DNA of 63,153 bases, the filler included, from Halocafeteria seosinensis (taxonomy: Eukaryota): NCBI GenBank assembly GCA_001687465.1. It is 5 parts of 5 records of this genome, joined end to end, with 100 filler letters (N's around TTAATTAATTAA, not from the genome) between each part and the next. Parts side by side here need not be neighbours in the genome. Positions count along the whole stretch, not along the records: positions 33,765 to 60,566 come from LVLI01000028.1; 4 more parts are not named here. One strand, written 5' to 3'. The translations under genes were made by a program, and so were the position numbers. The notes under the pieces are model-generated. The model did no database searches. It was given only the letters and a program-made list of their open reading frames with translations, and was not told the origin of the DNA. Each line of letters begins with the position of its first letter. Positions within the stretch are counted from its first letter, which is position 1. This document shows positions 39,705 through 62,011 of the stretch, piece by piece.

Positions 39705-39984
39705 TAGAAAAACCTTCAATATTTGTCTAACACACACATGGGGCAAATCGCCCGTATCGGCAAAAGTACATATTTTACAAAACTGTATGTATGACGACGA
39801 AGGCGTGACTGAGGCCCACCGGCAGCTGGATGTTAGCCGCTACACTTCGGTAGCTGCTGACACCCATGTCTGGTAGCTACAGGCCCGCTGTTCCACTAGG
39901 AGAGCGGCAGCATAAACGAGTGACTTCAAAGCATTGACGCAGACCCGAACTTCAGTATCCGTTTCCGTCACATCCCATGGGACC

Positions 39985-40380
39985 TCCGCATGGCTAGCTA
40001 GCAGTTCATTGCTTAACAGGATTGGGAGGATATTGTTGTTAGTTTCCTCTTGCACGTATGAGTCAATTCGTGTAGCTTGCTCTTTGGCTGTTCTCGAATT
40101 CGGATTCCACCTGAGACGTGCTATCCGTCGCAGTTCTTCGTCCCTCTTCTCTCCTGGCTCTCCTGGCCCTCCCCCATGCGCGTCTTTAGAACGTTCCATT
40201 CCGTCTCGTCCATACTCCCCCCTCTCGACACAGCCGCTTGACTCGCTAGCAGTTCATTGAGTAATAGGATTGGGGGGATATTGTTGTTAGTTTCCTCTTG
40301 CCACCTCATGTAACATACGATATTGTGTTTCACCAAGGATTCCAAAACTACAGTAGAGTCTTGGAATCGCGATACCTTCG

Positions 40381-40442
<62 letters not shown>

Positions 40443-44861: not shown

Positions 44862-45023
44862 AAGTACTTGTTTTTTAAGTGTGCGTGTGTATTACAGTAT
44901 GGATTAGATCCGTGGGTAATTCATTGTTTGACCTACGAACAACTGGCTACCCTTTCTCTGCCGAATTCCTAACACGTCCATACATGTTGAAGTTGTGCAG
45001 TGTGATCCGGGCGGAGAGCCCGG

Positions 45024-45079
45024 TCCGAAAATGGTCCGACGCGAAGCCGATCCGAAAATGGTCCGACGCGAAGCCGATA
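45024..45079. repeat. Tandem 27-bp duplication upstream of the recombinase gene
   Basis: TCCGAAAATGGTCCGACGCGAAGCCGA x2. Confidence 0.9.
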
Positions 45080-45117
45080 TACCGTAAAAGATGTTGAATT
45101 TGAGGCGCTATTTTTTT

Positions 45118-48100
45118 GACTAGACATGAAAATTAAGATGTGTCCTTGCGAAAAGCCCGGATTTTGCACAGCCCGGATTTTCATCCACAGTCCGGGCGGA
45201 GGGTGTGGCTGAGTAGAGCCTCTAAGAGGCGCTGTACAATCACGCTATCATGAGCCGTATTTTTAGTTAGTAAGTTATGGTATTACCCTAAATGGTGCAT
45301 TATTGAACGTATGGTGTTGTGTTTGTGGCTCTAGTGGCATGGCAGATAGCTCTGATCGCGTGAGCTTCGAAGATGACGGTTATGGCTTAGACTGATGGGA
45401 GCAACATATACAGCAGCAGCAAGTTAAGAAAGACGCCAGAGCTCCAGATGCAGGTATTTTGCCCATTACGAGCGAGGAATCTGGGTCCAAGGAGAACAGT
45501 ATGGATGGAGCTGGCGCAGTATTAGCGCATCCTGAGGCAGGAACCTCATCGAGAGAATAAGGAGCACTATCCATACACGGAATCGCGGGAGTTGACTGTC
45601 ATTCATTATCCATATGCTGGGAAAATCTGTGGCTGGAGTGCAATCATGGAGAGAAGCGCCTTCAGTGCACGGCTGGAACTGTCTTCCAATCCAGAGAAGG
45701 CGGTATGTAGGCAAGGGATGGATTCTAACAGACACGAGCGAAGGCCTTGAGTTCAAATTAGAGCAACACGACGGGCGCTGTCGGTATCTATTTGGCATTG
45801 GAACACTCTTGGATGCGTGCACTCATTCGCATCCGTAGTTGCTGCCGTTGACTCCATTGACACCTTTAGTTTCAACTTCCCCTGGACGTCGGGACTGGGA
45901 CAACGTACCTGGTTCCAGGTTCCAGGTTCCACATGGGCATTGCACAATACGCAACGCTTAAGTACATCGTAAACTCTCTTTACAGCACACAGTCATGTGG
46001 GAAGTCCGCTGGGGGTAGTAGCAGGGCGTCTACTCGCCGCTTCGCGAAGCCCGAACGTACAAGGATCCCTTCATTTGGAGATTTCTGATACTCATGGAGT
46101 GCTGCTGAGGCCCATCAAACTCTGTGGTATCACCCCATATTGCCAGCGTCTTATCTGATGGAACTCAAAACCCTGAATCTTCGCCCAAAGTTAGGACCAA
46201 ACCAACCGGGCAGCGGACTGCGAGAACACTTTCCCGGCCGAAGGCCAACGCTGCTCGACGTATCCATGATTACATTTGGTTCACTACAACAGATGCGGGT
46301 GGGATAGTCTCCAGACACTCTTTTGATGACAATAGGTCCAATTGCAACGACTATATTATTGGTGGTGCGACAGACAGTTGAAGGCCAGGGTGTTGTCGGT
46401 ATTTCGTGAATAGAATCGAGTTCTTATTTCATATACGATGATTTGTGATCGATCCTCTGCGATGTAGGTGGTATCTACGACGTCATTCAACGGCACAGTG
46501 AACAACAGGATGAACCTTTGGCGAACCGCTTACAACCACCTTAGCGCACAAGTATTCTACTGGAAGCACATACTTTTGTCGGACGTGATTAGTAACTATA
46601 CAGATGGTGTGTCTCGGCGGCATTCCTAAGCGTCGCTCTGTCGCCTGCACACTACTCTACAGTCGCCGGGGAGAAGAGAGCTTGCCGACTACCGCACAAC
46701 ATGGTAGATCCTAGTAACCACTTTTACCTTGGGAACCGACCTTTTAAATTCTAAAGCTTCGATGTCGATGAAGTGTACTGGATGGTTGTTAGTTACGTTC
46801 AGGTCTGGTAAAGGAACACTCTTGCCGGAACGTTTCCGTGTCTCGATCAGACTTTGGCCTCGTAAGGCATGATTCAACAACTCGAGGATACACCAAAACC
46901 AGTATGGAGCAACAGAAGTCTAACATTATCAGAGTGGGTGCAAGTTTGAAACACCGCCGCGAAAAGAGCACGCGTTCAAGGGATACAGCAGGTCCATGAA
47001 CCCGGCAGGTTGTCCGGAGGTCGCTAGACATCCACCCATGCCTCGGAATTTTCAACAAGCAAGATCTAACTCGATTTGAAGAGACTCTGAGATAAGGGGA
47101 AATCCGCGCAACAAAGTTCCACGATCCAGACGAAGCATGCAGTGTCAAAGCAGGACCATTGCAAGCAGACAATACTGAACTGTTAAGTGGTAAGAACAAA
47201 AGCCAGCACGCCTGAAAGATAAGCAAGCGATGCGACTTGAACTAGCGCAGCAAGTACCTGGGCACTGAGGGCGCTAAGAGGCAAAGGGAAAGCACCAGCA
47301 GCACCTCATGGTACCGCAGGATACCTGGATCCTGGATATGCTTTCTACTGTCAAAGCTCTGGAAAGTTCTGCTTGGAACCACATCCAGCTTAGTAGCTGA
47401 AGCCGATAAACGGGTAATGTTATACTAGATTATCATACGACCTGGATACCGAGTCTTAACTTCCTTCAAATGCAGAGTGCATGCTCGTTCGAGGAGGGAG
47501 AAGCGGATGAGCAGGAACAACGCAAGGTTGTACTAACGACACGAATATCATCAATGTATCTTGTTATCGTGTTTACTGGGTACACTATGTGTGCAGTCGA
47601 ATGGTGGTTTCAGTGCCGCGATGAGGAACTACGAGTGGCCACGAGTCGGCGGCAAAATCATCCCAGCCACCTAGTACCGGCACATCGCTCGAAGCATGCC
47701 ATACCCTCTTGTGTATTTAATGCATTCACGTTGTCGTTGTTTACGTCCTATGGGGCTCATAAGTCACTGTAACTCGGTAAATCGAGGGACACCGTGACCC
47801 GTTGTTGGTCCTTGGAAAGCTGACAAGTATTAGTTCTACTGAGTGGAATGGATCAATTGCAGAGGTGTCAATTAAATACTTGAATGCAGAATTTATCTCT
47901 CGGAGTTTTAGTGACGAAAGTGATAGAAAACCTCAAGCGACAGTCCTCTCGTAGCAGGGTCAGTAGTTGCTGTGGTGCTTTATCTGTGGTACTCATACTC
48001 GGAGGGCTACTCCAAAACACCGAGCAGCAATACTACCGCACACACACAGACGGGTCAGGGGTGAAACTTCGGGGGTTTAGGGAGATCTTCCACGGTGTGA

Positions 48101-48444
48101 GGATCTCCTAACTGGTTCCATTTAGCCGGTAGGCCATACTATTAGTACAACATTACTACAATACCACAGTACTTCACACCTCAACCAACCTATCGCACAT
48201 GGTATTTGAATACTGTCCATTTTCTTCAACAACAACAACACAGACACATACATAGAAGTACGACATTAATGGGTCTTTTCCACAATGCACCATTTAGAGT
48301 AACACCGTTAGTGAGTTACTAATACGGCTAGGGATAGAGTAGCCTACTCGGCCACACCCTTCCGCCCGGACCAGTGGATGAAAATCCGGGCTGTGCAAAA
48401 TCCGGGCTTTTCGCAAGGACACATCTTAATTTTAATGTCTACTC
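45118..48444. mobile_element. Non-autonomous DNA transposon (~3.3 kb) with long imperfect TIRs; superfamily uncertain, possibly MULE-like
   Basis: GA(C/G)TAGACAT.AAAATTAAGATGTGTCCTTGCGAAAAGCCCGGATTTTGCACAGCCCGG... at 45118-~45300 and as reverse complement at ~48285-48444; no intact internal ORF; no clear TSD. Confidence 0.8.
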
Positions 48445-48586
48445 CTGAGTAGACCGTAAAATTAATAAGTGTCCTAGGCAAACCGGGCTGGTCGCCCGGG
48501 GGAGTGAGCCGGGCCGAGGGACCGGCGTGAATGCCAGTCGGTCGAATCTGCCGGTTGTATAAGAAAGAGTTAAAGAACGATTTCAA

Positions 48587-49996
48587 GTGGATACTTTCAA
48601 AATGAAGGTTAAAACAATGGAAAGACCTCAATGGGTTACCGACCTTCTTAAAACTCATGGTTTTCTTGATAAACGCTTTATTCAACAAAGAGCAAAAGAA
48701 GAGCTCGTCAAGTTTAATACAAATGACAAGAATGAAGTGGAATTTGATCCAATTACGCATGAGTATAGAAAAGCTTACTTGGAACAATTTTACTTCAAAA
48801 TTCGTTGCCCTCCTTGTTTTGGTTATAAATCTTCAGACAATTTCCAACGATTTAAAAACTCTGATCTAGAAAATCAACTTGAGCCAATTAAGAACAGTAT
48901 GTATAAATGGATTCAAGGAAATCCCCGAACTTATGAAAAAATAGACTTTCTACCACCTCCAAACAAAAAAAGTTTAGATAAAGACATTTACAACCTCTAC
49001 AACGGTATGAGAGCCGAAAGACTACCAGTTTGCGAAGATGCTGATATCTCCATTTTTAAAGAACATTTGAATATATTAGCCGGAAACAACAAAGAGTGTT
49101 ACAACTACTTGGTTGGTTATTTGGGTCATTTATTAAAGAATCCTGGAGAATTAGTTGGGGTGGCTCTTGTGTTTATTTCAGCTCAAGGTACAGGAAAAAA
49201 TATATTTTTTGAACAGTTTGGAAAATACATATTAGGAGGATATTATAGAACTGATTCTAATCTTGATAATTTGGTGGGTTCTTATCCCGACCCAGCTGGG
49301 CTTTTACTCTGCTTGCTTACCGAAGTAAACGGACAAGAGAGCTATAAAAAGTCAGATCCATTGAAAAGCTTAATTACTGATGAAACTTTGAGACAAGAAC
49401 CCAAACACGTTCAAGCTTCATACGTATCTAACTATGGACGCTATATATTTCTGAGTAACCATAATAATTCGGTAAAAGTAGAACCTTCAGACCGTAGATA
49501 TGCGGTATTTAATCCTTCTACTGAAAGAAAGAATGATCATGATTATTTCAGGCGTTTAAACGAAGCTTTCGAAGACTCAAGTAAAGCCAGAGCACTCTAT
49601 GACTTCCTAATATATAACGCTTGGAATGTTTCCGACCTACGAGCAAAAAGACCAATAACCGAAGCTTATGAAAATATGAAAAGTATTAACCGCCCAATTG
49701 TCTTTGATTTCGCTAGATGGTTGACCCAAGAGTATAAAAATCCAAATAATCTTGACGAAGATGAGGATGATGAAGATCGAACCCGACAAAATTGTTTTGG
49801 TTCTCGTGAATTATTTAGTGAATTCAAAAAGTTCTTAAAAGACGATGGACGCAGTAAATGGGAATTCACACAAACTAAATTTTCTATTGAGTTGAGAAAA
49901 CTGGAAGATTATTTTAGAAAATACCGAAGCAACGGAACTAAGTATTTCATAGATTTGGATTCTCTCGAAGAAGCAATTGAAAACGGAGATATATAA
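48587..49996 (+). CDS. D5-like superfamily 3 helicase, probably 5'-truncated
   Basis: ISAQGTGKN (Walker A), LCLLTE (Walker B region), YIFLSNH (motif C), DRRY (arginine finger) and a C-terminal wHTH-like region; the frame starts at the host/virus junction. Confidence 0.9.
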   Translation: MDTFKMKVKTMERPQWVTDLLKTHGFLDKRFIQQRAKEELVKFNTNDKNEVEFDPITHEYRKAYLEQFYFKIRCPPCFGYKSSDNFQRFKNSDLENQLEPIKNSMYKWIQGNPRTYEKIDFLPPPNKKSLDKDIYNLYNGMRAERLPVCEDADISIFKEHLNILAGNNKECYNYLVGYLGHLLKNPGELVGVALVFISAQGTGKNIFFEQFGKYILGGYYRTDSNLDNLVGSYPDPAGLLLCLLTEVNGQESYKKSDPLKSLITDETLRQEPKHVQASYVSNYGRYIFLSNHNNSVKVEPSDRRYAVFNPSTERKNDHDYFRRLNEAFEDSSKARALYDFLIYNAWNVSDLRAKRPITEAYENMKSINRPIVFDFARWLTQEYKNPNNLDEDEDDEDRTRQNCFGSRELFSEFKKFLKDDGRSKWEFTQTKFSIELRKLEDYFRKYRSNGTKYFIDLDSLEEAIENGDI

Positions 49997-50024
49997 AACA
50001 GTCAAATAAGGTCATTTGACTGTT
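49997..50024 (+). terminator. Hairpin immediately after the helicase stop; candidate viral transcript 3'-end signal
   Basis: AACAGTCAAAT-aaggtc-ATTTGACTGTT, a perfect 11-bp stem. Confidence 0.55.
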
Positions 50025-50399
50025 CTTTTACTTTGTAATTACTAACAAACCTTAGTGGACAAGTTTATATAACCTGTCCAACCGTAGCCTCCAATAGTTA
50101 AAGCCTGTTTCAACGCTATTTGGACAGGTGGACAAGATGGAATAGAATTTTTGATTAGTTATAAATGAAGATCTTCTAGTATTCTGAAACTCTTGAAAAA
50201 ACTTGTCCATATGGTCCAATATTACAATTATGCAATTAAAACAGCTTAATCTATGTTTATTTCGCGGACTAGGTTAGAATCTGCCTCGTCCAAGTGTTCC
50301 AAATAGGATATAGTTAGATAGATAAACTAAAAAAATCAAGATCCAAAAAGGTCAAAAAGGATAAATCAATTTTTTTTTTTAATAAAAGAATATAAGTAA

Positions 50400-50522
50400 A
50401 TGTATTTTTATGGTGAAACAGTTGACAAATTCTTTGACTTTGGTTATAGATTGGGTGAATCCATATATATGACGTTAAGAGATAAAATTAAAGAAATCAA
50501 AACTTGTATTGAAGAATTTTGA
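50400..50522 (+). CDS. Small hypothetical viral protein (40 aa)
   Basis: ATG..TGA ORF MYFYGETVDKFFDFGYRLGESIYMTLRDKIKEIKTCIEEF after an AT-rich leader. Confidence 0.4.
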   Translation: MYFYGETVDKFFDFGYRLGESIYMTLRDKIKEIKTCIEEF

Positions 50523-50740
50523 TTAGTTTGTTTGATAGGACTAATCAAGAGAGACGTAGGAGGGAGAAAAGCCTTTTAGTCGGCGTGTCGCAAATTTTTT
50601 TGCCTGTTCAGGAGAACGGGCGTGTGTAATGATTTTTTTTCGGATAGTTCCAAAACGTGGATCATTGCGAGTCATATAAACTAAATATCTTCGTTTTGGA
50701 TTACTTGGCATTATATTATTTGAAGTGAAAATAATATAAA

Positions 50741-51100
50741 TTATTTGACTATTCTTACGTTAGCTATCAATTTAGGATTTCTTCCATTATCTGCCGGTGG
50801 ATATCCATAGGGGTATCTGCTCAATACTGTCCCAAGTTTATATCCAAACTCCCCTTCAGATAGTGGTCTCCAATAACCCATAATATCCGCAACAACATCT
50901 AAAAAATCTTTACAATCACTTAACATTCTACTATCTCCCCACCATTTTTTGAAACGTTCATATAAAGTACGTGGTTTTACGTAATTTCCTGAATCAACTG
51001 CTGGAACATTAAAAGCATATTGATCTTCTCTTACAGTTGTGTCTTTTTTTTCATAATTAGTACATTCTTTTAAGAATTGTAAGACAATTTTCTTATTCAT
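50741..51100 (-). CDS. Hypothetical viral protein, possibly a winged-helix domain of the primase/helicase C-terminal type
   Basis: 119-aa ORF; YVKPRTLYERFKKWW resembles D5/P4-alpha C-terminal wHTH; TATATA before the ATG. Confidence 0.6.
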   Translation of the reverse strand: MNKKIVLQFLKECTNYEKKDTTVREDQYAFNVPAVDSGNYVKPRTLYERFKKWWGDSRMLSDCKDFLDVVADIMGYWRPLSEGEFGYKLGTVLSRYPYGYPPADNGRNPKLIANVRIVK

Positions 51101-51114
51101 TATATAATATAAAT

Positions 51115-51720
51115 TTAAATTTTGTGGTTATCAAGTGGACATTTATCGATAAAACTCAGACACTCGAGACAAACAACATGAGAGTGATGGCATTTGAGTT
51201 TTTTAACAGTGTTAATATTTTCATAGCAAATGATACAAGGATCATTAGAATTTTCAAGCTGATGCGATTTAGGTCTTAGAAAATAAAAGTAATCTGAGCA
51301 ATGATTACCATTTTGGATATAAGCACCATTATAAACATTATAACCCATATTTCTAAGTTGTTTTTCAATGTTCTTTGGTTGAACGTTTTTTAAAAATTTA
51401 GTGTTGATAAGAACGTCTAAGAATTCTCTACTTTTTTTTTTATATTTACAATTTCCGTGTGTGAAACGTGAGAGAGGATAACCATTATTGATCAAACTGA
51501 CCAGAGTATCTTTGTCTTTCATTGCTTTAAAATGAAGGTTAAAAGTTTTGTTAAGTCGATATTTTAAGGCTAGATCTTCAATAGTTTTTTTACTCAATTT
51601 ATGAATAGGTGCATTACATTTTTGAACTAAGAAGTAACCGGCACAGGTTTTACGCTCACGAATTTCTTTATTTAACTCTTTTAATAAATCTTTTTCTTCA
51701 AGTTCTACTTGAATAACCAT
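51115..51720 (-). CDS. RING-finger protein (putative E3 ligase)
   Basis: C-terminal CIIC..C.HSH..CLEC....KCP. Confidence 0.8.
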   Translation of the reverse strand: MVIQVELEEKDLLKELNKEIRERKTCAGYFLVQKCNAPIHKLSKKTIEDLALKYRLNKTFNLHFKAMKDKDTLVSLINNGYPLSRFTHGNCKYKKKSREFLDVLINTKFLKNVQPKNIEKQLRNMGYNVYNGAYIQNGNHCSDYFYFLRPKSHQLENSNDPCIICYENINTVKKLKCHHSHVVCLECLSFIDKCPLDNHKI

Positions 51721-51773
51721 TCTATATATTATGTATTGATTTTTTTTTTAAATCAATACACAAAAAAAAATTC

Positions 51774-53543
51774 TTACTTAAGGAATCTATCTAAGGCTTT
51801 ATCAGTAGCTTTTTCGACACCTTTATTTAGGACTTTATTACCCACTTTAGAGACTGTATTGCCCAATTTTCCAAGTAATTTTTTGCTTTTACCAGCTCCA
51901 CCAATTTTTTGGTCAAGGTTTCTTTGTTCGGGCCATGATTCGGCTTTAAGGGCATCATCTTCGGTAAGGAATCCCCAAAAGAGTTGACTAACACCTTGAT
52001 AATTATATAAAAACTCGGAGTCGACCAGAACAATACTTAATTCGAGGGTGTTGTAGGTGGTACTAGATGTTTGGTTTTCAACTGTAAGTTCAACTCTTAA
52101 GTTTGTATGTGTATTTACGCCGGGGGCTAAACCGGCTTGTAGTTCAATATCTTCACCGAAATCGAAAACCAGGGGGGCAGAAGTGAGAGGGATACGAGAA
52201 CCGTCAGAATTAAGCCCGCGTCCTATAAAGGTTTCCCAGGGAATAGGGATATATTTACGGGTCATTGTGTAGAGGTCAGCTTGTGTGAATGTTCGCAAGA
52301 TATTAGCGTCATTACCCAATCGAATAGAACATGAATGAGGTACAAAATGAAAATCAGCATCTTGAGCTTCAAGATTTTCCCTGGGGATTCTAGCCATTGC
52401 AATCATTTTTTCGGATATGTTACTTAGTTGAATTTCATGAGATTGGATTTCTTTCTTTGCTCCTGGAACAAAATTAACAGGATCTCTTTTAGTTGTAACA
52501 TCAAACCGGTACATTGGCAAGGTGTTAATAATAGACATTGGTGAATCTCTAGACAAAGGGGCTTGCATTGCCAAATAATGTAATTTTGGGTTTAGAAAAG
52601 GATTATTATTTCCGAAGTCTTCACCGGTAACTTCAAAGCGTGGATTCGTGGCAGTCGAATCGTTACGGGCTAGTTTTGGAGAGTTTACAGTATCAAGATT
52701 TAATCTTAACTGTTTTACTCCCCATAATCCTTGATTATCCATTCCGTTTTCTCCATTAAAAATTAGAGGCGGAATCCAAGGAGTTGCTTCAAGGTGATAC
52801 TTAACATAGATATCTATAGAATCACCATTTGAAAAAGCTTCTGAAGTTGACACATTAAGAGCTTTTGAATTATTTCCAGTGATTCCGTTAATACCAATTA
52901 CAGTATTATTATTCGATGTGTAACCAGCACCGCCCGCTTGTAATTCATTTCCTTGAGGATCACAAAAAGCAATCGGAGCAAAAGCACCGTCGGGGACGTG
53001 TTGAGACTGTAAAGTCATATTTTGGTAGCTTGCTAGGGGGGTACTATTACTATTGGTTGCATCATTGTAGCTTTGGAATCCAATATCAATATTTGAAGGA
53101 GTATGATATGAATTGGCTCTATTTTCGTTGTACATGACAAGATTTAATCCTTGAAAACATTCGGAAAGATCAACAGAAATTTGTTGGTTATTAATGGTCA
53201 TTCTAGGGCTTTCAAACAGTCTATTAAGAGGATGATCCCTAAGGGCAATACTTTGGGGTACGTACAAAGTAGTATTCGCATTTATATCTGCCCGAGCAGT
53301 AAGGGTAAATTTATGAATATAATCGGTATTCACTCTTAAATCACGTCTAATAACGGTATCATAAGAAGGAGGATCAAGTTGAAATTGAAGCCCTCTTTTG
53401 CTGTTTGAACTAGCATCATCATCTTGGGCGTTATAATTTCGACCACTGATGAGAGTTTTCATTTGGGGTTCAAGTGGTTTAACAAGATCAGGGTAGTCCT
53501 TGTAAATTTTGGGTTGAAATTTTGGATCTGAAATTAAACTCAT
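51774..53543 (-). CDS. Virophage major capsid protein (double jelly-roll)
   Basis: 589 aa; motifs matching virophage MCPs (ALRDHPLNRLF..TINNQQISV, TPLASY, QGLWGV, IQLSNI, SIRLGNDANIL..TQADLY); C-terminal IGG-A diglycine site. Confidence 0.9.
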   Translation of the reverse strand: MSLISDPKFQPKIYKDYPDLVKPLEPQMKTLISGRNYNAQDDDASSNSKRGLQFQLDPPSYDTVIRRDLRVNTDYIHKFTLTARADINANTTLYVPQSIALRDHPLNRLFESPRMTINNQQISVDLSECFQGLNLVMYNENRANSYHTPSNIDIGFQSYNDATNSNSTPLASYQNMTLQSQHVPDGAFAPIAFCDPQGNELQAGGAGYTSNNNTVIGINGITGNNSKALNVSTSEAFSNGDSIDIYVKYHLEATPWIPPLIFNGENGMDNQGLWGVKQLRLNLDTVNSPKLARNDSTATNPRFEVTGEDFGNNNPFLNPKLHYLAMQAPLSRDSPMSIINTLPMYRFDVTTKRDPVNFVPGAKKEIQSHEIQLSNISEKMIAMARIPRENLEAQDADFHFVPHSCSIRLGNDANILRTFTQADLYTMTRKYIPIPWETFIGRGLNSDGSRIPLTSAPLVFDFGEDIELQAGLAPGVNTHTNLRVELTVENQTSSTTYNTLELSIVLVDSEFLYNYQGVSQLFWGFLTEDDALKAESWPEQRNLDQKIGGAGKSKKLLGKLGNTVSKVGNKVLNKGVEKATDKALDRFLK

Positions 53544-53553
53544 TTCTATATAC
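53544..53553 (-). promoter_or_regulatory. Candidate viral promoter motif TATATAGA directly upstream of the ATG (this copy precedes the MCP; the motif is shared by most viral genes)
   Basis: TATATAG(A) lies 0-4 nt before the ATG of ORFs starting at 51720, 53543, 54875, 56333, 57210, 57880 and 58891; variants before 51100, 54976 and 57936. Confidence 0.7.
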
Positions 53554-53624
53554 TGAGTAATAGAAAAAAGTATTTAAAAAGTAAGATCAAAAAAGGGTTT
53601 TGGTTGAATAAATTCTATAGTTGA

Positions 53625-54875
53625 TTATCTTTCTTCAACATCTCGTTTTTGAAAAATCAAGGATAAGTGAGCGGTACTTTGATTTGGCAATGTTAACGGT
53701 ATTAATTTAGATGAGAATCGATCTCTATAGTAAAATTGGATTTTGATTTCTCGCATCGGTCTGGAATCAACTGAAGAAATAGTTAAAAAGGTGTATTCAT
53801 TAGCGACGAATAATAAATTTTGTTGCCACGCGGTAGGGTTTTGTTTATCTATGGAGAATTCTGTAATAATATCTTGCATGTGGTCTTTTGTGATATCGTT
53901 AACTTTTCCGTATCTATTAGTTCCGTAATCTATAGGCTCGGTTTGAATAGCTGGAACAATATTCATATTTTGAGCCACTACAACAATAGATTCAACTGGA
54001 GACCAATAGTGACCGAGTGCTTGAAATTCTTGAGTCATTTTGTAATAAGGTTCTTCAGTACCTTCACCAGAACCATTTAAAGGATTTAAAGAAACGATAT
54101 TTCTTCCCAGATTACTCTGAAAATCAATTTCGAAATTTCTACCCAGGTCATCCGAATCAGAACCGTGAGAAAGAAAAGGTAAGTTACTAAAAACATTATA
54201 TGAATTTTGATTAAAAAACAATTGCCAATGTTCGTTATTGAGGGTGTTTATATTTCCAAATCCTTCAGTAGGTGCGTAACAAGATACTCGGTTGGTTTCC
54301 GGGTCATAGTACAAAAAAGGATATGAATTTTCACCAATAGTAGGATCGAAACCATTTAAACCAAGTATATTTGAGAATGCTGTTTGAATAGCGTTGTTGA
54401 ACATTGTTACAACGTGTTGGACCGAAAAACATTGATAGAATCCGTTTTCTATATCTTCAGGGGGAGGGGCTGACATATTTAACCGTTGAGAGTGATATTG
54501 AACAAATTGTTGATTATAGTGAGTTGTTCCACCTTGAACGACTTTTAAAGTGACGGAATATATTCCGTTTGTAGATGAATCTGTTTGTGTGAAAAAATGA
54601 AAAATAGGCAAATTTTGAGAAACTCCATCCAAATTAAATTTTCGGACAGCTGTTTTATATTTACTTGGATTTTCAACAATGGGATTTTTTGAAGTTTCAA
54701 TGAATTGACAATAAGGATTATTTGAGTCCCACATGGTTCTATCGGTTGCGTGGTTAATAATAGCTAAATCAACATATATATAATCGGGATCAGTTTCTTC
54801 TTCATCTGATTTTTGCACACTTAATTGATGGGTGAAAGGTGTACCGTCAGAAGTATAAAATTTCTGTTTTGACAT
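53625..54875 (-). CDS. Virophage minor capsid (penton) protein
   Basis: 416 aa directly upstream of the MCP; PDYIYVDLAIIN, NPIVENPSKY..VRKF..LPIF, WSPVESIV and YYRDRF..LIPL..L.LIFQK motifs. Confidence 0.85.
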   Translation of the reverse strand: MSKQKFYTSDGTPFTHQLSVQKSDEEETDPDYIYVDLAIINHATDRTMWDSNNPYCQFIETSKNPIVENPSKYKTAVRKFNLDGVSQNLPIFHFFTQTDSSTNGIYSVTLKVVQGGTTHYNQQFVQYHSQRLNMSAPPPEDIENGFYQCFSVQHVVTMFNNAIQTAFSNILGLNGFDPTIGENSYPFLYYDPETNRVSCYAPTEGFGNINTLNNEHWQLFFNQNSYNVFSNLPFLSHGSDSDDLGRNFEIDFQSNLGRNIVSLNPLNGSGEGTEEPYYKMTQEFQALGHYWSPVESIVVVAQNMNIVPAIQTEPIDYGTNRYGKVNDITKDHMQDIITEFSIDKQNPTAWQQNLLFVANEYTFLTISSVDSRPMREIKIQFYYRDRFSSKLIPLTLPNQSTAHLSLIFQKRDVEER

Positions 54876-54975
54876 CTATATATAAAGATCATATTTTTTG
54901 AAAAGTGAAAAAACTCTTTAGTTTGGGCTTTTATTTTAGAGTTTTGACATTTAATAAAAAAACTCTATAGAATAT

Positions 54976-55791
54976 ATGCCAAAACTTTATTTAGGAAATG
55001 AATATAATCCGGATGAAACAATTGGATTTGTCAAAAAACTTGATGGAACGGTAGAAGATCAAGTTGTCAATTTACATGAAGAACAATTAGGACAACCACC
55101 AGCAACAAAAGAGGAGGCTCAAATTGATTTGAATGGGGATTATTTTTTTTCTCCATTACCAAGAAAAGTCAAAAACAGATTTCCTTTTTGTACGTATTGT
55201 GCAGGCTGTAAAGGAAGTGGAAAGACCACATTGTTGTGCAATTGGGCAAACAATTATAAGGTATTAACACAAAATCCAGTGTATTTAATAAGCTCGAAAG
55301 ACTTTGATCCAACTATTGAAAAAGAACTAGGAGAAGATAACATAAAGAGAGTTGACACAAATGCATTTGCACCAGATGAAGAGGGTAATAAGGAACATAT
55401 ACCTGACATTGACGATTTTGAAGATTCTTTGGTTTGTTTTGATGATTTTATGAACGATAGAGATGCCGGTGAGATCTTGCATTTATTGAATGTTTTAGCT
55501 GAACGGGGGAGGGATAGAAGCATTTCTATTTTCTGTATTTTCCACAATGTTACCAATAGTCACAAAACAAAACTGATTTTGAACGAAAGCGACTATTTTA
55601 TTATTTTTCCGAAACTTTTAAGTAATCATAATTTTAGGTATTTTTCGCAACAATACGGTAACATAGATGATAAAAGACTGCTTAAGAAGCTCAAGAGAGA
55701 CGCGGGAAACTATATAGTAATCTCGAACGGTCCAAAGTACATTGTTTCAGCTCAGTCGACTTATTTACCTGATCATATATTTGATGATTAG
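54976..55791 (+). CDS. FtsK/HerA-family (A32-like) genome-packaging ATPase
   Basis: AGCKGSGKT (Walker A), LVCFDD (Walker B), ERGRDRSIS and ILNESDYFIIFP. Confidence 0.9.
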   Translation: MPKLYLGNEYNPDETIGFVKKLDGTVEDQVVNLHEEQLGQPPATKEEAQIDLNGDYFFSPLPRKVKNRFPFCTYCAGCKGSGKTTLLCNWANNYKVLTQNPVYLISSKDFDPTIEKELGEDNIKRVDTNAFAPDEEGNKEHIPDIDDFEDSLVCFDDFMNDRDAGEILHLLNVLAERGRDRSISIFCIFHNVTNSHKTKLILNESDYFIIFPKLLSNHNFRYFSQQYGNIDDKRLLKKLKRDAGNYIVISNGPKYIVSAQSTYLPDHIFDD

Positions 55792-55796
55792 TTTTA

Positions 55797-55822
55797 TATA
55801 ATTCAATTCAATTTGAATTATA
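55797..55822. terminator. Hairpin between convergent viral genes
   Basis: TATAATTCAA-ttcaat-TTGAATTATA, a 10-bp stem between stops at 55791 and 55842. Confidence 0.55.
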
Positions 55823-55841
55823 CTTTATTTCAATGGTTTTT

Positions 55842-56333
55842 TCAGCCTCTTATTAAAACACCACCTTTGGGTTGATAAAGATTTTCTTGTTTCACTATAT
55901 GACTGGCTTTCGGTAAGGAAACCCCTCGTTCTTTCATTACGTGTTTAACGAGCTCCCCACGGGATTGAATTCCGTCAGAACCTCCACCTTTTCCCAAACC
56001 GAGAACATTATTAGCAGATTTATCAAAAGCTTTTCCGATATCTGTCAACAGTGCACCGCCTTTTTGTCCGCCTTGAGACCCCCCGGCAGCGTCAACAATT
56101 GCGTCGGTAATGGTTTTAAAGATACCGCCTTTCTTCTGAGCTCCACCTTTACCAAGTCCAAATGGGTTTGCAAAGGTATCACCAATGCTACCAACAGTTT
56201 CAAATAGACCTCCACCGACCTGGCCCACTTGATCCAAAAAATCAAGTTCAAGTCCTTGTTTTTCCATTTCATCATAGAGTTTATTCAAAAGCTGTTTAGC
56301 TTTCTTTTTATTTATCTTTTTCCCTTTCGCCAT
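55842..56333 (-). CDS. Gly-rich putative virion core protein
   Basis: Several xGG sites; C-terminal RGELVKHVMKERGVSLPKASHIVKQENLY resembles a motif I recall from virophage proteins. Confidence 0.6.
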   Translation of the reverse strand: MAKGKKINKKKAKQLLNKLYDEMEKQGLELDFLDQVGQVGGGLFETVGSIGDTFANPFGLGKGGAQKKGGIFKTITDAIVDAAGGSQGGQKGGALLTDIGKAFDKSANNVLGLGKGGGSDGIQSRGELVKHVMKERGVSLPKASHIVKQENLYQPKGGVLIRG

Positions 56334-56361
56334 ATTCTATATATTCTATATGTAAAAAAAT

Positions 56362-57210
56362 TTATTTCATATGTTTCCTTGTTTTGTTATTGAGTACATC
56401 AGAAATAGAATCACGAATATTAATCAAATTGTTTAAAGTTGGTTTATCCAAAGCTTCCAATATATCTTTAACTTTGTTGGTTTTCATTGCAGTGGATAAA
56501 TTCCAAAGAGTTTGTTTATAACCTTCCAAATCTGTTTGAAATTTTTGGTTACTCTTTTTAATTTTATGATTCTCTAATAGAAAAATAAGAGAGTCAACAC
56601 CCTCACGCATTTGATGGAAAAAACCTAGCAAAGGATTATTCAAAATCTCTAAAATTTCATTATACTTTTTTGGTTTATTTTGGAGCTTATAGAAAGAATA
56701 CATTCTTTTTAATGATTTGTACAAATTTCCCTCATTTGCTTTTTCTTCTGCTTCTTTCTTGATATTGTTTATCATATCTTTCTTTGGGGTTAATTCCTTA
56801 TAAAATAAACTATTTGTAAACTCATGAAAAGAACCAGTAGAAGGCAAAAACGCTAAGACATCAATTTTGAAAAATACTTTCTTGTTTTGTAGTTGACTTT
56901 TTAAACTCACTTCACCTTGGTAACCTTTTTTGATTTGGTCTTTTGACCACCTAATTTTATGGTTATCGATTTCAGTTTTGACATCTCCCAAGTAAATATT
57001 CTTATTTGAGGAGAGTTTTTTTACTTTTTGTGAAAACTCTTTAACAACTTTATCAATATTGAGATCATCTAAAAATTGATTTATATCATAATCCATTGTA
57101 AAATATACATTTGGATCTTGTTGAGATCCGGCTAAGTTCCATTTTTTTCCGAACGTAATCAGCTTAATAACTTCTTTTTCATCATTTGTCAAAAAACTCT
57201 TTCTTTCCAT
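56362..57210 (-). CDS. Nucleotidyltransferase-like (pol-beta superfamily) protein
   Basis: LAGS.........DYD signature and a third acidic position in KIDV. Confidence 0.6.
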   Translation of the reverse strand: MERKSFLTNDEKEVIKLITFGKKWNLAGSQQDPNVYFTMDYDINQFLDDLNIDKVVKEFSQKVKKLSSNKNIYLGDVKTEIDNHKIRWSKDQIKKGYQGEVSLKSQLQNKKVFFKIDVLAFLPSTGSFHEFTNSLFYKELTPKKDMINNIKKEAEEKANEGNLYKSLKRMYSFYKLQNKPKKYNEILEILNNPLLGFFHQMREGVDSLIFLLENHKIKKSNQKFQTDLEGYKQTLWNLSTAMKTNKVKDILEALDKPTLNNLINIRDSISDVLNNKTRKHMK

Positions 57211-57217
57211 CTATATA

Positions 57218-57880
57218 TTATCGGACAATTTTTAAGGATTCTCTTTCCTCTCTTGGGTAGAGTGTCATATATTCGTTAATAGTTGGTATTTCTTTCACTT
57301 TGTTCCAATCCTCGGAGTTTGGAATATTTTCCACTTGATAATAGTATTTTTTCAAGTATTGAGCCTTTCTATAGACAATAAATGGGATTGGCTTTCGATA
57401 TCTTCGCTTTTGTTTTCTGCATGGAATCAAACAAGACTTTTCTGTTTCTTCTTTACCCATCCAATTCCCGAAAATTGGTCTGGTAGTTTTATAACTTATT
57501 TCATTTACATTATTCCCTAATTTTGGAAGAACGCAATAATCTAATGTTTGGTAAATTTTTATGGTATCTTCATAAGACAAACAAATATTTGGAAACATAA
57601 GCCAAATTTCATTATCTTTTCCAGCTAAATAAAAGAATTGGGTAGTTTCGCATAAATCAAAACGAACTTCAAGATGATGATATATTTTTATCATATAATT
57701 ATTTAATTCTTCAATACTCGGTAATTTTTTGCATTTAACTACCACCCATAAGGGCAACTGATCAGTGTTTTCTTCATTAAATTGCTCAATAATGGAGTGG
57801 TGTTCCCCGTTCCAGCTTTGAATACATGCTTCTTGAGAAAGATTTATTGGAAGTTCATCAGGATAAAGTAGGTGCGACAT
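57218..57880 (-). CDS. Hypothetical viral protein, possibly a degenerate AEP-primase-like fold
   Basis: 220-aa ORF with the upstream TATATAGA motif; IWLMFPNI resembles the AEP 'IH..FP' motif. Confidence 0.55.
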   Translation of the reverse strand: MSHLLYPDELPINLSQEACIQSWNGEHHSIIEQFNEENTDQLPLWVVVKCKKLPSIEELNNYMIKIYHHLEVRFDLCETTQFFYLAGKDNEIWLMFPNICLSYEDTIKIYQTLDYCVLPKLGNNVNEISYKTTRPIFGNWMGKEETEKSCLIPCRKQKRRYRKPIPFIVYRKAQYLKKYYYQVENIPNSEDWNKVKEIPTINEYMTLYPREERESLKIVR

Positions 57881-57935
57881 CTTCTATATATATAAATTTC
57901 TTATTTTTTTTACGACTTTCCAATATAGGAAGAAT

Positions 57936-58859
57936 ATGGAAGATACTCTATTAGATATATTAATGCAACTTAGAAAACCAAAGAAGTCCAATAAATCTAA
58001 AAAAAAAGATACTGGAAAAACAAAAGGCAAAAAAAGAGCTTTTTTTAAAGATGATGAAGAAAACCACACTTTTGATGAGAGTGGTAACCAAATACAAGAA
58101 GATTATGACCCAGTAACGTGCAAACATCCCAGTAATAAAACCTATTTTGAGGTTTGTAAAGCTTCTTACATGCCTCCCAAATCCAGACCACAAACAATTA
58201 ACCAATGGTGGATTAGAATGCGAAAATTTTCGAGTAAAACTGTGGCTTGTTACCAAGATCGTGAAGCCAAAGTTATTTTGGTCGCCTACCGTGGTACAGA
58301 AAAAACAAGTGTCAGTGATTTATCTGCTGATAAAGATATTATGTTTAATAAACTTAATAGAACCGGACGTTTTCAGAAAGATTTGGAAACAACTCAAAAA
58401 TTACTTGAAAATTTTCAAAGCTCTCATTGTATTTTTACCGTTGGACACTCTCTTGGTAATGCTATTCAATTACAAATGAATAGAGATTTGGACAATTTTG
58501 CAAGGGCTGGAAGATCTTATAATGGAGCTCTCCAACCTAGGGATTTAATTCAAGTGTTTAAAAATTATGATTATTGGTATATCAAAGGAGATCCATTATA
58601 TAGTTTAAGTGGCAGATTTTTAAAAAAGAATTTGTATGTTTTCCCAGAAGTTAGCAAAAAAAGCCTGCAAAATCATGATTTAGATAACTTCAAAGGTTTG
58701 TCAGAAAAAGACGCAATTAAAAAACCAAAAGGAGGAAGAAAGAGACCAACTAAAAAAGATTTGGTAGGTTTAGGAATGGTTAGACACAAAGACAAAGTGC
58801 AACCGAGTGGAATGCCTTACCCACTGGAAGTATATTATAGAGAATCGGGAATTATGTAA
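57936..58859 (+). CDS. Class 3 lipase / alpha-beta hydrolase
   Basis: VAYRGT..DL.AD, GHSLG nucleophile elbow, GDP and a C-terminal His (NHDL). Confidence 0.88.
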   Translation: MEDTLLDILMQLRKPKKSNKSKKKDTGKTKGKKRAFFKDDEENHTFDESGNQIQEDYDPVTCKHPSNKTYFEVCKASYMPPKSRPQTINQWWIRMRKFSSKTVACYQDREAKVILVAYRGTEKTSVSDLSADKDIMFNKLNRTGRFQKDLETTQKLLENFQSSHCIFTVGHSLGNAIQLQMNRDLDNFARAGRSYNGALQPRDLIQVFKNYDYWYIKGDPLYSLSGRFLKKNLYVFPEVSKKSLQNHDLDNFKGLSEKDAIKKPKGGRKRPTKKDLVGLGMVRHKDKVQPSGMPYPLEVYYRESGIM

Positions 58860-58890
58860 ATACAAAAATAAATATTATATATATAGAAAA

Positions 58891-60498
58891 ATGGCTGTAG
58901 CTCAGATTATAAATGATCAAACTAGCCAAATCTACAAACATCTAATACCTACAAAACATTCCTCACATATTTCTAATATTACGGTGGCTTCAAATGATGC
59001 TCCACAAGCTATAAAAGACAGTTCTGATTATGTCTGTGATGGAGCTTCTGACCAAGTACAAATTAATCAAGCTATTCAAAACTCTAGTGATGGTGATAGA
59101 ATTTTATTGTCTCAAGGTGAGTTTATAATTGATGACCAAATTCAAATAAATAGCTCTGTTAGTTTTCTGGGTATTAATCGAGAGGATACTACAATTAAAG
59201 TAGATGATAACGCAACCAGTGCAAATCAATGGATAGATGTAACTGCAAGTGGTCTACTAATTCAAGATATGAAACTAGATGGCAATAATTCAAACCGTGG
59301 AGTTGATAATATTGACGATATTCTGATCCGGTTTAATGGTGTTAATTATTCCGTGGTTCATAGATTGCAACTTTTTTCAACTTCTTCTTATGAAATTTAT
59401 GTCGATAACTGTAGTCATTTAATGCTGACCGAATTATATGTTGACAATACTGATTCTCAAAAAGGTTCAGCGGTTTATTTTACAAATTTAAATGATACCG
59501 CTGATGTCTCTTTAACTCACAGCTTTTTTGAAATGCTAAATCACACCTGTATTGAGACCAATACGGTTAACTCCCTGACCATAGATAATTGTAAGGTCCA
59601 CAATGGGAATCGTGGTGTTTCGGCTGGTATTGCTGACTCTAATATTATCGTTAGTAACTGTGTTTTCGATGGATGTACCAACATTCATTACCCAGCTAAT
59701 AGAGGAGTGTTTACGAATAATAAATTTTCAAACACTGATGGAGGAATCACGATTCTTAACAATTCTGGAAACGGAAACAATAACTATATTGATGGTTTAT
59801 ATTCTGAAAATGATAGCAGTGTGACAGGAGTTGTTCATATTGACGGAGGCTCTGATAATTCGGTATACGATGTTGAGATCATTTCTCCAAATTGTCCGGC
59901 TATTGTGGTTGACCACAATAATGGTGATGGCGACCCTACTAATTTTAATTGTAACAATATTAAGGTTGGAAATACTAGTAATCCAGCATTAAACCTTCAA
60001 AACTTGACTACGGGTAATTTATCAGGACTTTTATACCTTCAGGCTAGTGATAGCACGGCTGTTTCCATTCAAAACAGTTCAGGACTAAATTTTGATAACT
60101 TCGTTTTTGAAGAAATTAAAAAGGGTTTTAATGTGGATAGCATAACTAACAGTTCTTTTTCTGGTATTGACATTGTTGATTGTACTCAAGGGGGTTTTGA
60201 CATTCAAAATAACTCATCCGGCAATCAATTTAGTGAGGTCAAAATTCGGGAAGCTCAAAGAGGCTTTTTCTTGACTGGTACAGCAAATGAGAACACTTTT
60301 AGCCAAATTACTATGACAGGTTGTACAGATAATTGTATTAAAAATAACGGAAATAATAATAGCTTTTCAGGTATATATTGTTACGATACTGGCAGTGGTA
60401 CACCAGACAATAATGTAGCTATATTAAGTGACGGAGCTAATGGAGCGAATATTTGGCGTGATATTACTATTCAACAAATTAATTCTTCTTATGATTAG
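58891..60498 (+). CDS. Pectin-lyase-like right-handed beta-helix protein (fibre/spike-like), ending in the telomere tract
   Basis: VASNDA..DYVCDG.SDQVQINQAI..G.RILLSQGEF start followed by Asn-rich beta-helix repeats; stop TAG at 60496-98 lies within the first TTAGGG. Confidence 0.8.
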   Translation: MAVAQIINDQTSQIYKHLIPTKHSSHISNITVASNDAPQAIKDSSDYVCDGASDQVQINQAIQNSSDGDRILLSQGEFIIDDQIQINSSVSFLGINREDTTIKVDDNATSANQWIDVTASGLLIQDMKLDGNNSNRGVDNIDDILIRFNGVNYSVVHRLQLFSTSSYEIYVDNCSHLMLTELYVDNTDSQKGSAVYFTNLNDTADVSLTHSFFEMLNHTCIETNTVNSLTIDNCKVHNGNRGVSAGIADSNIIVSNCVFDGCTNIHYPANRGVFTNNKFSNTDGGITILNNSGNGNNNYIDGLYSENDSSVTGVVHIDGGSDNSVYDVEIISPNCPAIVVDHNNGDGDPTNFNCNNIKVGNTSNPALNLQNLTTGNLSGLLYLQASDSTAVSIQNSSGLNFDNFVFEEIKKGFNVDSITNSSFSGIDIVDCTQGGFDIQNNSSGNQFSEVKIREAQRGFFLTGTANENTFSQITMTGCTDNCIKNNGNNNSFSGIYCYDTGSGTPDNNVAILSDGANGANIWRDITIQQINSSYD

Positions 60499-60566
60499 GG
60501 TTAGGGTTAGGGTTAGGGTTAGGGTTAGGGTTAGGGTTAGGGTTAGGGTTAGGGTTAGGGTTAGGG
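60495..60566 (+). repeat. Telomeric repeat (TTAGGG)12 at the contig end
   Basis: 12 perfect units with the G-rich strand running 5'->3' toward the end. Confidence 0.95.
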
Positions 60567-60666
60567 NNNNNNNNNNNNNNNNNNNNNNNNNNNNNNNNNN
60601 NNNNNNNNNNTTAATTAATTAANNNNNNNNNNNNNNNNNNNNNNNNNNNNNNNNNNNNNNNNNNNN
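60567..60666. other. Artificial contig-joining spacer
   Basis: N-TTAATTAATTAA-N. Confidence 0.97.
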
Positions 60667-62011
60667 CAAGTAGTAATACTGCGAGTCAGACAGGCACTCG
60701 AACGCCATCGAATACGGCGAGTCAGACTATGACGGGAACGGCGTCCAATACTGAAACTCCGACGAGCTCTGTGACAGCGAGTGAGACTGCAACAAATACA
60801 GTTACCAAGACTCCGTCGAATACAGGCACCCCGTCCAACACTGAAACTCCAACAAGTAGTAATACTGCGAGTCAGACAATCACTCGTACGCCTTCAAACA
60901 CTGCGTCTGAAACGGCAACTGGCACGTCTTCAAAAACTGGCACATCGACAGCCTCATCATCGTTAACGCCGACGCCGACGTCCAGTCATACGGCTCGAGT
61001 TACTGTCACTGTAACGTCTACGGTAACCTCGACTGTAACGATGACAGGGACGGCTACAAGCTCGGTGTCTGGATCGTCCACCTCGACCGGAACGGTAACC
61101 GTCACACCAACGTCATCCCAAACTGCATCTGCAACAGCTACAAGGAGTGGGACGGCTTCCCAAACGAGCACGCCGACAAGCACAATATCTCCGGCTGAGA
61201 CAGTCACGTCTACTGTCACTTCCACTGTAACAGTCACGATGACTCCAACATCGTCGAGAAGTCCATCCAGCAGCAATTCTGCCAGTGCAAGTGTAACGAT
61301 GACACCTTCCAACACGGCCACTCAGACAATAACTGGTACTGCCTCGCTTACAAAAACTCCGACGAGCTCTGTGACAGCGAGTGGTACTGCAACAAATACA
61401 GTTACCAAGACTCCGTCGAACACAGGCACCCCGTCCAACACTGAAACTCCAACAAGTAGTAATACTGCCAGTCAGACAGGCACTCGAACGCCATCGAATA
61501 CGGCGAGTCATACTATGACGGGAACGGCGTCCAATACTGAAACTCCTACTAGCTCTGTCACCGCTGCGGAGACAGCGACAAACACAGTTACCAGGACTCC
61601 GTCGAATACAGGCACGCCGTCCAACACTGAAACTCCAACCAGTAGCAATACTGCGAGTCAGACAGGCACTCGAACGCCTTCGAATACGGCGAGTCAGACT
61701 ATGACGGGAACGGCGTCCAATACTGAAACTCCGACGAGCTCTGTGACAGCGAGTGAGACTGCAACAAATACAGTTACCCGGACTCCGTCGAATACAGGCA
61801 CACCGTCCAACACTGGAACTCCAACAAGTAGTAATACTGCGAGTCAGACAGGCACTCAGACGCCTTCAAATACGGCGAGTCAGACTATGACGGGAACGGC
61901 GTCCAATACTGAAACTCCGACGAGCTCTGTGACAGCGAGTGAGACTGCAACAAATACAGTTACCAAGACTCCGTCGAGCACAGGCACACCGTCCAACACT
62001 GAAACTCCAAC
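60667..62011 (+). CDS. Fragment of a Thr/Ser-rich mucin-like protein with 186-bp (62-aa) tandem repeats
   Basis: Frame open across the contig; AATACGGCGAGTCA recurs at 61497, 61683 and 61869. Confidence 0.75.

What the first reader, a model, noticed from the sequence alone, without database searches (positions are those of the whole stretch)
60400..60566. Virophage DNA is capped directly by a (TTAGGG)n telomere
Seen: the viral beta-helix ORF runs without any spacer into 12 perfect TTAGGG units (...TCT TAT GAT TAG GG). The telomere itself provides the stop codon and is oriented as a true chromosome end. No viral TIR or subtelomeric buffer is present. Inference: the virophage forms the terminal ~12 kb of a host chromosome. 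This could result from telomerase healing of a break inside a provirophage, or from end-capture or telomere-targeted integration of linear viral DNA. Known endogenous virophages (Mavirus/EMALE type) are typically integrase-inserted and TIR-bounded, so this would be an unusual route to endogenisation.
Basis: partly seen in the sequence, partly recalled or inferred. Interest (0 to 1): 0.92.

Follow-up and report, generated by a model that had tools for sequence, protein, structure and literature searches.

The report
Telomere-healed break inside an integrated virophage
A small virus apparently integrated in a microbial eukaryote's genome stops in mid-gene and runs straight into chromosome-end repeats; other copies of that gene carry on past this point, so this is likely a broken virus copy that the host capped with a new telomere, not a new way for such viruses to integrate.

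Summary
Twelve perfect TTAGGG units (60495-60566) end a 26.8-kb contig, G-strand outwards, fused to a beta-helix gene of an 11.9-kb low-GC virophage segment (Sputnik-type capsid, penton, helicase). In the one sequencing run that holds this DNA, both contigs reaching the join continue with non-telomeric sequence, open in the gene's frame. The join is therefore a truncation, not the virus's natural end; no protease, integrase or right-hand inverted repeat was found in the piece. Best reading (0.62): a provirophage near a chromosome end broke, and telomerase healed the break on a 2-base overlap. The telomere-made stop codon (1 frame in 3) and the overlap (37% of sites) are at chance level. No laid contig shows the telomere join itself, but the tool drops human-like records, so artefact, interstitial insert and end capture stay open. 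Virophages at chromosome ends are already reported: 13 ends in Halocafeteria seosinensis (bioRxiv 2026), a host with the same GC contrast. Telomeres fused into coding genes are known from Plasmodium. New here is a base-level before/after view inside a virophage. A new route to endogenisation is not supported.

The parts
60495..60566 (+). 12 perfect TTAGGG units ending the contig; likely a new telomere
60495..60496 (+). 2-nt overlap shared by the viral gene and the first repeat unit; uncapped copies diverge after 60496
   Evidence: tables 7 and 8; overlaps of 2 or more occur at 37% of positions
58891..60498 (+). Beta-helix (tailspike/fibre-like) gene, 535 aa, cut short at its 3' end; stop codon made by the repeat
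   Evidence: Pfam Beta_helix E 4e-4, below cut-off; PHROG minor tail protein E 3e-7; continuation in other copies
57936..58859 (+). Lipase/esterase-like ORF, 307 aa
   Evidence: PHROG esterase/lipase E 0.007; GHSLG motif in the translation
57218..57880 (-). ORF of unknown function, 220 aa; not shown to be the maturation protease
   Evidence: no significant family hit; model pLDDT 43 with alpha/beta core, no fold match at E<=0.001
56362..57210 (-). ORF of unknown function, 282 aa
55842..56333 (-). Gly-rich ORF, 163 aa, unknown function
54976..55791 (+). P-loop ATPase, 271 aa; likely the packaging ATPase
   Evidence: Walker A motif in translation; AAA_22 E 0.01; PHROG terminase E 4e-5
53625..54875 (-). 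Minor capsid protein (penton), 416 aa
   Evidence: PF21507 E 8e-10
51774..53543 (-). Virophage major capsid protein, 589 aa
   Evidence: PF21915 E 1e-24, PF22031 E 1e-17; profile hits Sputnik V20, 3j26; nearest relative 53-54% identical
51115..51720 (-). RING-finger ORF, 201 aa
   Evidence: zf-C3HC4_3 E 1e-4
50741..51100 (-). ORF of unknown function, 119 aa; skipped in a variant copy
   Evidence: joint 50742-51136
48602..49996 (+). SF3 (D5-like) helicase, 464 aa, without the primase part found in most relatives
   Evidence: DUF5906 E 8e-16; 43 of 64 relatives are 700 aa or longer and align from residue ~310 on, but the best hit is also short
48555..60496 (.). Low-GC virophage segment (33% against 48% in the flank), about 90% coding, with a TATATAG motif before most ORFs
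48447..48554 (+). GC-rich (62%) terminus-like sequence whose first 29 nt match the ends of the neighbouring element; either a host transposon end or the virus's own short left end
   Evidence: summed depth 1568 at 48497 against about 100 in the virus
45118..48444 (.). 3.3-kb host-GC element with ~100-nt terminal inverted repeats, no recognisable gene
   Evidence: 94% inverted match; no significant Pfam hit in 23 ORFs scanned or 2 more
60567..60666 (.). Assembly linker, not biological sequence
   Evidence: same 100-nt pattern four times

Best explanation
The tract is likely a new telomere that the host's telomerase added to a chromosome broken inside an integrated virophage, deleting the rest of the virus. 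Shown: virophage genes, a host-like flank on the same contig, a clean join to perfect outward-facing repeats, and other copies of the gene that continue past the join. Inferred steps: (1) a longer virophage integrated in a transposon-rich subtelomeric region by its own integrase, as relatives do; (2) a double-strand break fell in the beta-helix gene; (3) telomerase primed on the terminal TT and added repeats; (4) the distal piece, presumably with protease, integrase, right TIR and the old chromosome end, was lost at little cost because it held no essential host gene. The copy left would be unable to excise as a full virus. The stop codon is incidental.
For:: of 4 contigs laid, 2 reach 60496 and both go on (median 244 nt) in non-telomeric sequence with 0.92 agreement; the 30 letters shown hold no stop in the gene's frame (read by eye). 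One of the two is identical to the window over 60341-60496; the other is a diverged paralogue. Perfect repeats, outward orientation and no subtelomeric buffer are the hallmarks listed for healing in Plasmodium, where 4 of 5 healed reference ends lie inside coding genes (PMC5550746). The segment is 11.9 kb against a 24.6-kb mean for complete virophages of the likely related group, with no protease or integrase recognised. The flank is transposon-rich. Weak hint: contigs of depth 139 and 43 feed a continuing contig of mean depth 66, so part of the flow ends or branches within it. Complete or partial viral genomes stand at 13 chromosome ends in H. seosinensis.
Against: 0 of 4 contigs show the telomere join (depth 0 at 60501-60512); the tool drops human-like records and serves contigs, not reads, so this is not decisive. 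The one run may be the source of the assembly and is not independent. The continuing copies are other loci or alleles, so the 'before' state at this locus is not seen. The 2-nt overlap is at chance level (37%). The contig ends in the repeat, so what lies beyond is unknown. The host's own repeat was not determined; the genome preprint on H. seosinensis prints its telomere as TAACCCT, which read literally is a 7-nt unit and not TTAGGG. With several near-identical copies, the left flank may not belong to the capped copy.
Confidence: 0.62

Rival explanations
1. End capture: a piece of free linear virophage DNA was joined to an already broken chromosome end (or copied there from another locus by break-induced replication) and then capped. 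The telomere step is the same; the integration step needs no integrase.
For: No clear viral TIR or target-site duplication on the left; the helicase frame opens only 9 nt from the GC step and lacks the primase part of 43 of 64 relatives, so both ends may be ragged. TIR-less partial viral copies in subtelomeres are reported in Acanthamoeba (PMC12210455).
Against: The best helicase relative is also short (486 aa), so left truncation is not proven. The left boundary is a repeated terminus motif, not random host DNA, as expected for nested insertion or transposon damage. Relatives encode integrases and most have TIRs.
Confidence: 0.13
2. Assembly artefact: the join comes from chimeric reads or wrong path resolution in a short-read assembly of a multi-copy virus.
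For: No contig of run X1 shows the join. Contigs are short, end in microsatellites and repeats, and the virus has several variants. EMALE fragments at contig ends were judged assembly effects (PMC8547959).
Against: A k-mer or overlap assembler cannot join two sequences on 2 shared bases without reads that hold the join (general knowledge). The orientation is the correct one of two, and the tract is perfect from the first unit. Depth drops across the region (weak).
Confidence: 0.12
3. Interstitial insert: telomeric repeats were put into a break in the gene during repair and the virus resumes beyond them; the assembler stopped in the repeat.
For: The contig ends inside the tract at only 72 nt, so nothing shows it is terminal.
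Against: Viral genomes at true chromosome ends are reported for the likely related group. Perfect tracts of 72 nt or more inside a gene are rare (general knowledge).
Confidence: 0.07
4. Telomere capture or telomere-directed recombination: the broken end, or the virus itself, recombined with an existing telomere through a telomere-like motif, as telomere-integrating herpesviruses do through their own repeat arrays (recalled).
For: The first 16 letters beyond the join in uncapped copies are moderately telomere-like: 2.8% of plus-strand 16-nt windows in the segment score as high. Only virophages, with one exception, lie in subtelomeres of H. seosinensis.
Against: The motif lies beyond the join and is absent from the capped copy, so it was not the primer. 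39 other sites score as well, and the test was chosen after seeing the motif. The segment has no plus-strand TTAGGG. The join destroys a gene.
Confidence: 0.06

Closest known systems
Endogenous virophages of Halocafeteria seosinensis (bioRxiv 10.64898/2026.07.28.741278; main text read, parts 1-4 of 5; supplements closed)
   Same: Host GC 47% and virophage GC about 35% (here 48% and 33%); D5-type helicases, RING proteins, nesting in transposons, terminal palindromes; complete or partial viral genomes at 13 chromosome ends, nearly only virophages in subtelomeres. The nearest capsid relative here carries the label GECG, recalled (not shown by a call) as a transcriptome of this species.
   Different: The main text explains the location as a 'safe harbour' and describes no telomere added inside a viral gene. 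The host of this window was not established; the capsid is only 53-54% identical to that record.
Telomere healing (de novo telomere addition) in Plasmodium falciparum (PMC5550746; section 6 and passages read) and human neotelomeres (bioRxiv 10.1101/2022.10.31.514589; passages read)
   Same: Telomeric repeats fused directly into a coding region, loss of the subtelomere, short or no microhomology at the join.
   Different: The DNA healed here is viral; telomerase action and terminal position were not tested here.
EMALEs / mavirus in Cafeteria burkhardae (PMC8547959; passages read)
   Same: Low-GC virophage DNA in a protist genome, several related copies, often near host repeats.
   Different: Complete EMALEs have TIRs of 0.2-2.3 kb and target-site duplications; partial ones were put down to incomplete assembly; 'telomer' does not occur in that text.
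Subtelomeric giant-virus fragments in Acanthamoeba (PMC12210455; passages read)
   Same: TIR-less viral pieces near TTAGGG tracts, colonised by mobile elements, allele-specific ends.
   Different: Giant-virus DNA, not virophage; no join inside a viral gene in the passages seen.
Telomere-integrating herpesviruses, HHV-6 and Marek's disease virus (recalled; only a review title was seen)
   Same: Viral DNA next to host telomeric repeats at a chromosome end.
   Different: Those viruses carry their own TTAGGG arrays and integrate whole; this one has none and is cut mid-gene.

Membership tests
Virophages (Maveriviricetes) | Virophage-type double jelly-roll major capsid protein | tested here: met
   PF21915 and PF22031 above cut-off; Sputnik V20 hit E 1e-19
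Virophages (Maveriviricetes) | Minor capsid protein (penton) | tested here: met
   PF21507, 38.5 bits against cut-off 27
Virophages (Maveriviricetes) | FtsK-HerA packaging ATPase | tested here: inconclusive
   P-loop ORF beside the penton; only weak generic hits
Virophages (Maveriviricetes) | Maturation cysteine protease | tested here: inconclusive
   Not recognised among the 11 ORFs; libraries are weak for this family; may lie in the lost part
Virophages (Maveriviricetes) | Replication depends on a giant virus | not testable with these tools
   needs infection experiments
Complete provirophage (EMALE-type) | Terminal inverted repeats at both ends | tested here: not met
   no inverted match between the first and last 1.5 kb; a terminus-like sequence on the left only
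Complete provirophage (EMALE-type) | rve integrase or tyrosine recombinase gene inside the element | tested here: not met
   none recognised in 48555-60496
Complete provirophage (EMALE-type) | Target-site duplication | not testable with these tools
   the right end is missing
Healed chromosome end (neotelomere) | Perfect repeats, G-strand outward, joined directly to non-telomeric DNA | tested here: met
Healed chromosome end (neotelomere) | An unbroken version continues past the join | tested here: met
   2 of 2 contigs reaching 60496 continue; these are other copies, not shown to be this locus
Healed chromosome end (neotelomere) | Short overlap with the repeat at the join | tested here: inconclusive
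   2 nt, at chance level
Healed chromosome end (neotelomere) | Join is present in reads and the repeats are terminal | tested here: inconclusive
   only filtered contigs were served; none shows the join
Healed chromosome end (neotelomere) | Repeat equals the host's telomere repeat | tested here: inconclusive
   no genome held; TTAGGG is the commonest type and inferred ancestral in stramenopiles (PMC3622300); one preprint prints TAACCCT for H. seosinensis
Telomere-integrating viruses (HHV-6/MDV type) | Virus carries its own telomeric arrays at its genome ends | tested here: not met
   0 plus-strand TTAGGG in the segment; uncapped copies continue without repeats

The most novel reading that the evidence does not exclude
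Provirophages of this group are recurrent breakage sites: chromosomes break inside them (for instance through abortive excision or cutting by their own enzymes) and telomerase caps the stump. Virophage DNA would then form many chromosome ends because it creates them, not merely because subtelomeres tolerate it, and telomere healing would be a route by which the host disarms provirophages. This would explain why virophages, and almost no Polinton-like viruses, stand at the 13 reported chromosome ends.
Probability: 0.15. Interest if true: 0.72.

Novelty: new member of a known kind. Interest (0 to 1): 0.36.

Why it matters
As a single event it shows how a provirophage can die: some virophage fragments at contig ends are likely real truncations capped by telomeres, whereas such fragments have been put down to incomplete assembly. 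It also gives a cheap test of why virophages crowd chromosome ends in some protists: count virus-to-telomere joins in a long-read assembly and see whether they fall inside genes at scattered or at shared positions. It does not show a new integration route.

Tried and rejected
No whole genome is held, so chromosome ends could not be counted. Searches for complete relatives failed: viral contigs with the capsid, its alignment and the helicase gave no locus; metagenome contigs gave one 2.2-kb contig; the terminus motif had 0 matches in viral contigs; the ATPase had none in phage records. Beta-helix relatives are too distant (best E 2e-15, mostly over the N-terminal part) to give the full length. 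None of the 9 window proteins looked up is in the protein collection. A homologue search with a host protein timed out, so the host lineage stays open. The protein atlas did not answer. The 220-aa ORF was folded as a protease candidate: low confidence, no significant match. No hairpin lies before the join (z 0.73). Rejected: the stop codon as a sign of design (1 frame in 3) and the 2-nt overlap as evidence (37%). Sequence after 60666 is another contig and says nothing about an interstitial tract. Ectocarpus viral 'telomeres' are protelomerase hairpins, unrelated (PMC13236599, passages). Earlier-findings look-ups by place and sequence were blank.

Full report
Observation. The window is five contigs joined by a 100-nt linker of 44 N, TTAATTAATTAA and 44 N. 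The third contig (33765-60566) ends in 12 perfect TTAGGG units at 60495-60566, the only run of two or more units in 63 kb, with the G-rich strand towards the end. The ORF 58891-60498 runs into them with no spacer. DNA after 60666 belongs to other contigs, so it neither shows nor excludes an interstitial tract.

What the DNA is. GC drops from 48% to 33% at about 48554. The 11.9 kb from there to the repeats is about 90% coding and holds a virophage major capsid gene (PF21915, PF22031), a penton (PF21507), an SF3 helicase (DUF5906), a RING protein, a P-loop ATPase, a lipase-like gene and the beta-helix gene. A profile of the capsid and nine relatives finds Sputnik V20 in the PDB. Seven of the 11 ORFs have TATATAG just upstream, a motif absent from 14.8 kb of flank. 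No protease or integrase was recognised, and the two ends share no inverted repeat. The nearest capsid is 53-54% identical and comes from a protist transcriptome labelled GECG; I recall this label as Halocafeteria seosinensis, which no call confirmed. The host of the window was not established.

The join is a truncation. One public run, X1, holds 83% of the sampled words of 52000-60494; it is served as contigs only and may be the source of the assembly. On 60150-60512, 4 contigs were laid. Two reach 60496, at depth 66.3 and 66.5, and both go on for a median of 244 nt in non-telomeric sequence with 0.92 agreement. One is identical to the window over 60341-60496; the other is a diverged paralogue. 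The 30 letters printed hold no stop in the gene's frame (10 codons, read by eye; weak alone). So the gene is longer in other copies and the telomere is not the virus's natural end. The last two shared letters are also the first two of the repeat, but an overlap of 2 or more occurs at 37% of positions, and one frame in three gives an immediate stop. Neither is informative.

Is the join real? None of the 4 contigs shows it, and depth is 0 over 60501-60512. The tool drops human-like records, and a short link into a very deep repeat is the kind of branch that contig simplification removes (recalled), so this is not a refutation. Contigs of depth 139 and 43 feed the continuing contig, whose mean is 66; if the shared part carried 139 to 182, the part beyond the join would carry only 27 to 4. 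That fits a capped copy leaving the path, but collapsed variants could do the same. An assembler needs reads that hold the join in order to build it (general knowledge), so I give artefact 0.12.

Left side. Over 41000-60494, 346 contigs were laid and only the best rows were shown (6 of 62 loose ends, 8 of 361 pieces). The virus has several variants, including one that skips the 119-aa ORF. Summed depth is about 70-170 in the virus and 220-1200 in the flank, so the flank is repeated DNA. Next to the virus lies a 3.3-kb element with ~100-nt inverted repeats (45118-48444), head to head with a related terminus at 48447-48554; the 29-nt end motif occurs exactly three times in the window, none expected by chance, and the pair forms a 60-nt imperfect palindrome. 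This may be a host transposon end into which the virus is nested, or a short viral left end. The helicase begins 48 nt after it and lacks the ~300-aa primase part present in 43 of 64 relatives, although the best relative is also short. The left end may thus be damaged too, and its phasing with the capped end is not secure.

Mechanism. Most likely (0.62) a longer virophage integrated in a repeat-rich subtelomeric region, a break fell in the beta-helix gene, telomerase added repeats on the terminal TT, and the distal part was lost. Only the anatomy and the existence of longer copies are shown; integration route, break and telomerase action are inferred. Rivals: end capture without integrase (0.13), artefact (0.12), interstitial insert (0.07), recombination with a telomere (0.06). 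One oddity remains: the first 16 letters beyond the join in uncapped copies are moderately telomere-like (2.8% of windows score as high; test chosen after the fact), yet they are absent from the capped copy.

What is known. A 2026 preprint (10.64898/2026.07.28.741278; parts 1-4 of 5 read; supplements closed) reports 36 complete and 18 fragmentary virophages in H. seosinensis, host GC 47%, virophage GC 35%, mean length 24.6 kb, with complete or partial viral genomes at 13 chromosome ends and, with one exception, only virophages in subtelomeres; it invokes a safe harbour and its main text describes no join inside a gene. The companion genome preprint (10.64898/2026.06.25.734631; parts 1-2 of 3 read) prints the telomere as TAACCCT, which taken literally is not TTAGGG; this counts against my reading if the host is that species and the notation is exact. 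TTAGGG is the commonest eukaryotic repeat (PMC3622300, passages). Repeats fused into coding regions are the hallmark of healing in Plasmodium (PMC5550746) and of human neotelomeres. Subtelomeric viral fragments occur in Acanthamoeba. In Cafeteria, partial EMALEs at contig ends were put down to assembly. Bellas et al. list 74 virophage capsid genes in H. seosinensis (PMC10120064, passages). Searches showed no report of a telomere inside a virophage gene.

Verdict. A real-looking, probably healed break in a provirophage: two known things meeting, seen at base level. It is a virophage by capsid and penton, not a complete provirophage, and not a telomere-integrating virus. Interest 0.36. The bolder reading, that provirophages are breakage sites which create chromosome ends, rests on one join and has probability about 0.15.

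Noticed in passing
window 16439-16528 and on to 17609: A strong fold-back (z -7.4) opens a second low-GC stretch (33.5% over 16000-17609) with a 376-nt direct repeat, running to the end of contig 1. It looks like the hairpin end of another virophage or Polinton-like virus, and is unlike the GC-rich terminus at 48447.
   Followed up: partly
window 45118-48444 and 48447-48554: A 3.3-kb non-coding element with ~100-nt inverted repeats sits head to head with a related terminus, forming a 60-nt palindrome; its two flanks share no obvious target-site duplication. Some palindromes reported beside virophage ends could be such abutting transposon termini.
   Followed up: partly
window 43291-44697 (-): A 468-aa frame with tyrosine-recombinase-like motifs by eye (Crypton-like); no supporting Pfam, NCBIfam or PHROG hit; repeated in run X1.
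   Followed up: partly
window 57218-57880 (-): The low-confidence model of this viral ORF has an alpha/beta core whose weak fold hits include several circular ssDNA virus Rep proteins (E 0.002 or worse); possibly an HUH-like domain.
   Followed up: partly
window 37881-39704 (+): A 600-aa P-loop ORF with a weak trypanosome RHS-family hit (E 0.06), inside nested inverted repeats (36157-41899).
   Followed up: no
window 19377-28874 (-): An intron-free 3165-aa host ORF, likely ARM-repeat; not in the protein collection; homologue search timed out.
   Followed up: partly
window 13736-15223 (+), 32024-32695 (+), 33709-34677 (-): DDE transposase genes or fragments; the first also has SAP and chromo domains and lies between 32-nt inverted repeats.
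   Followed up: no
window 60667-62011: A separate contig of a Thr/Ser-rich mucin-like ORF built of 186-nt repeats.
   Followed up: no
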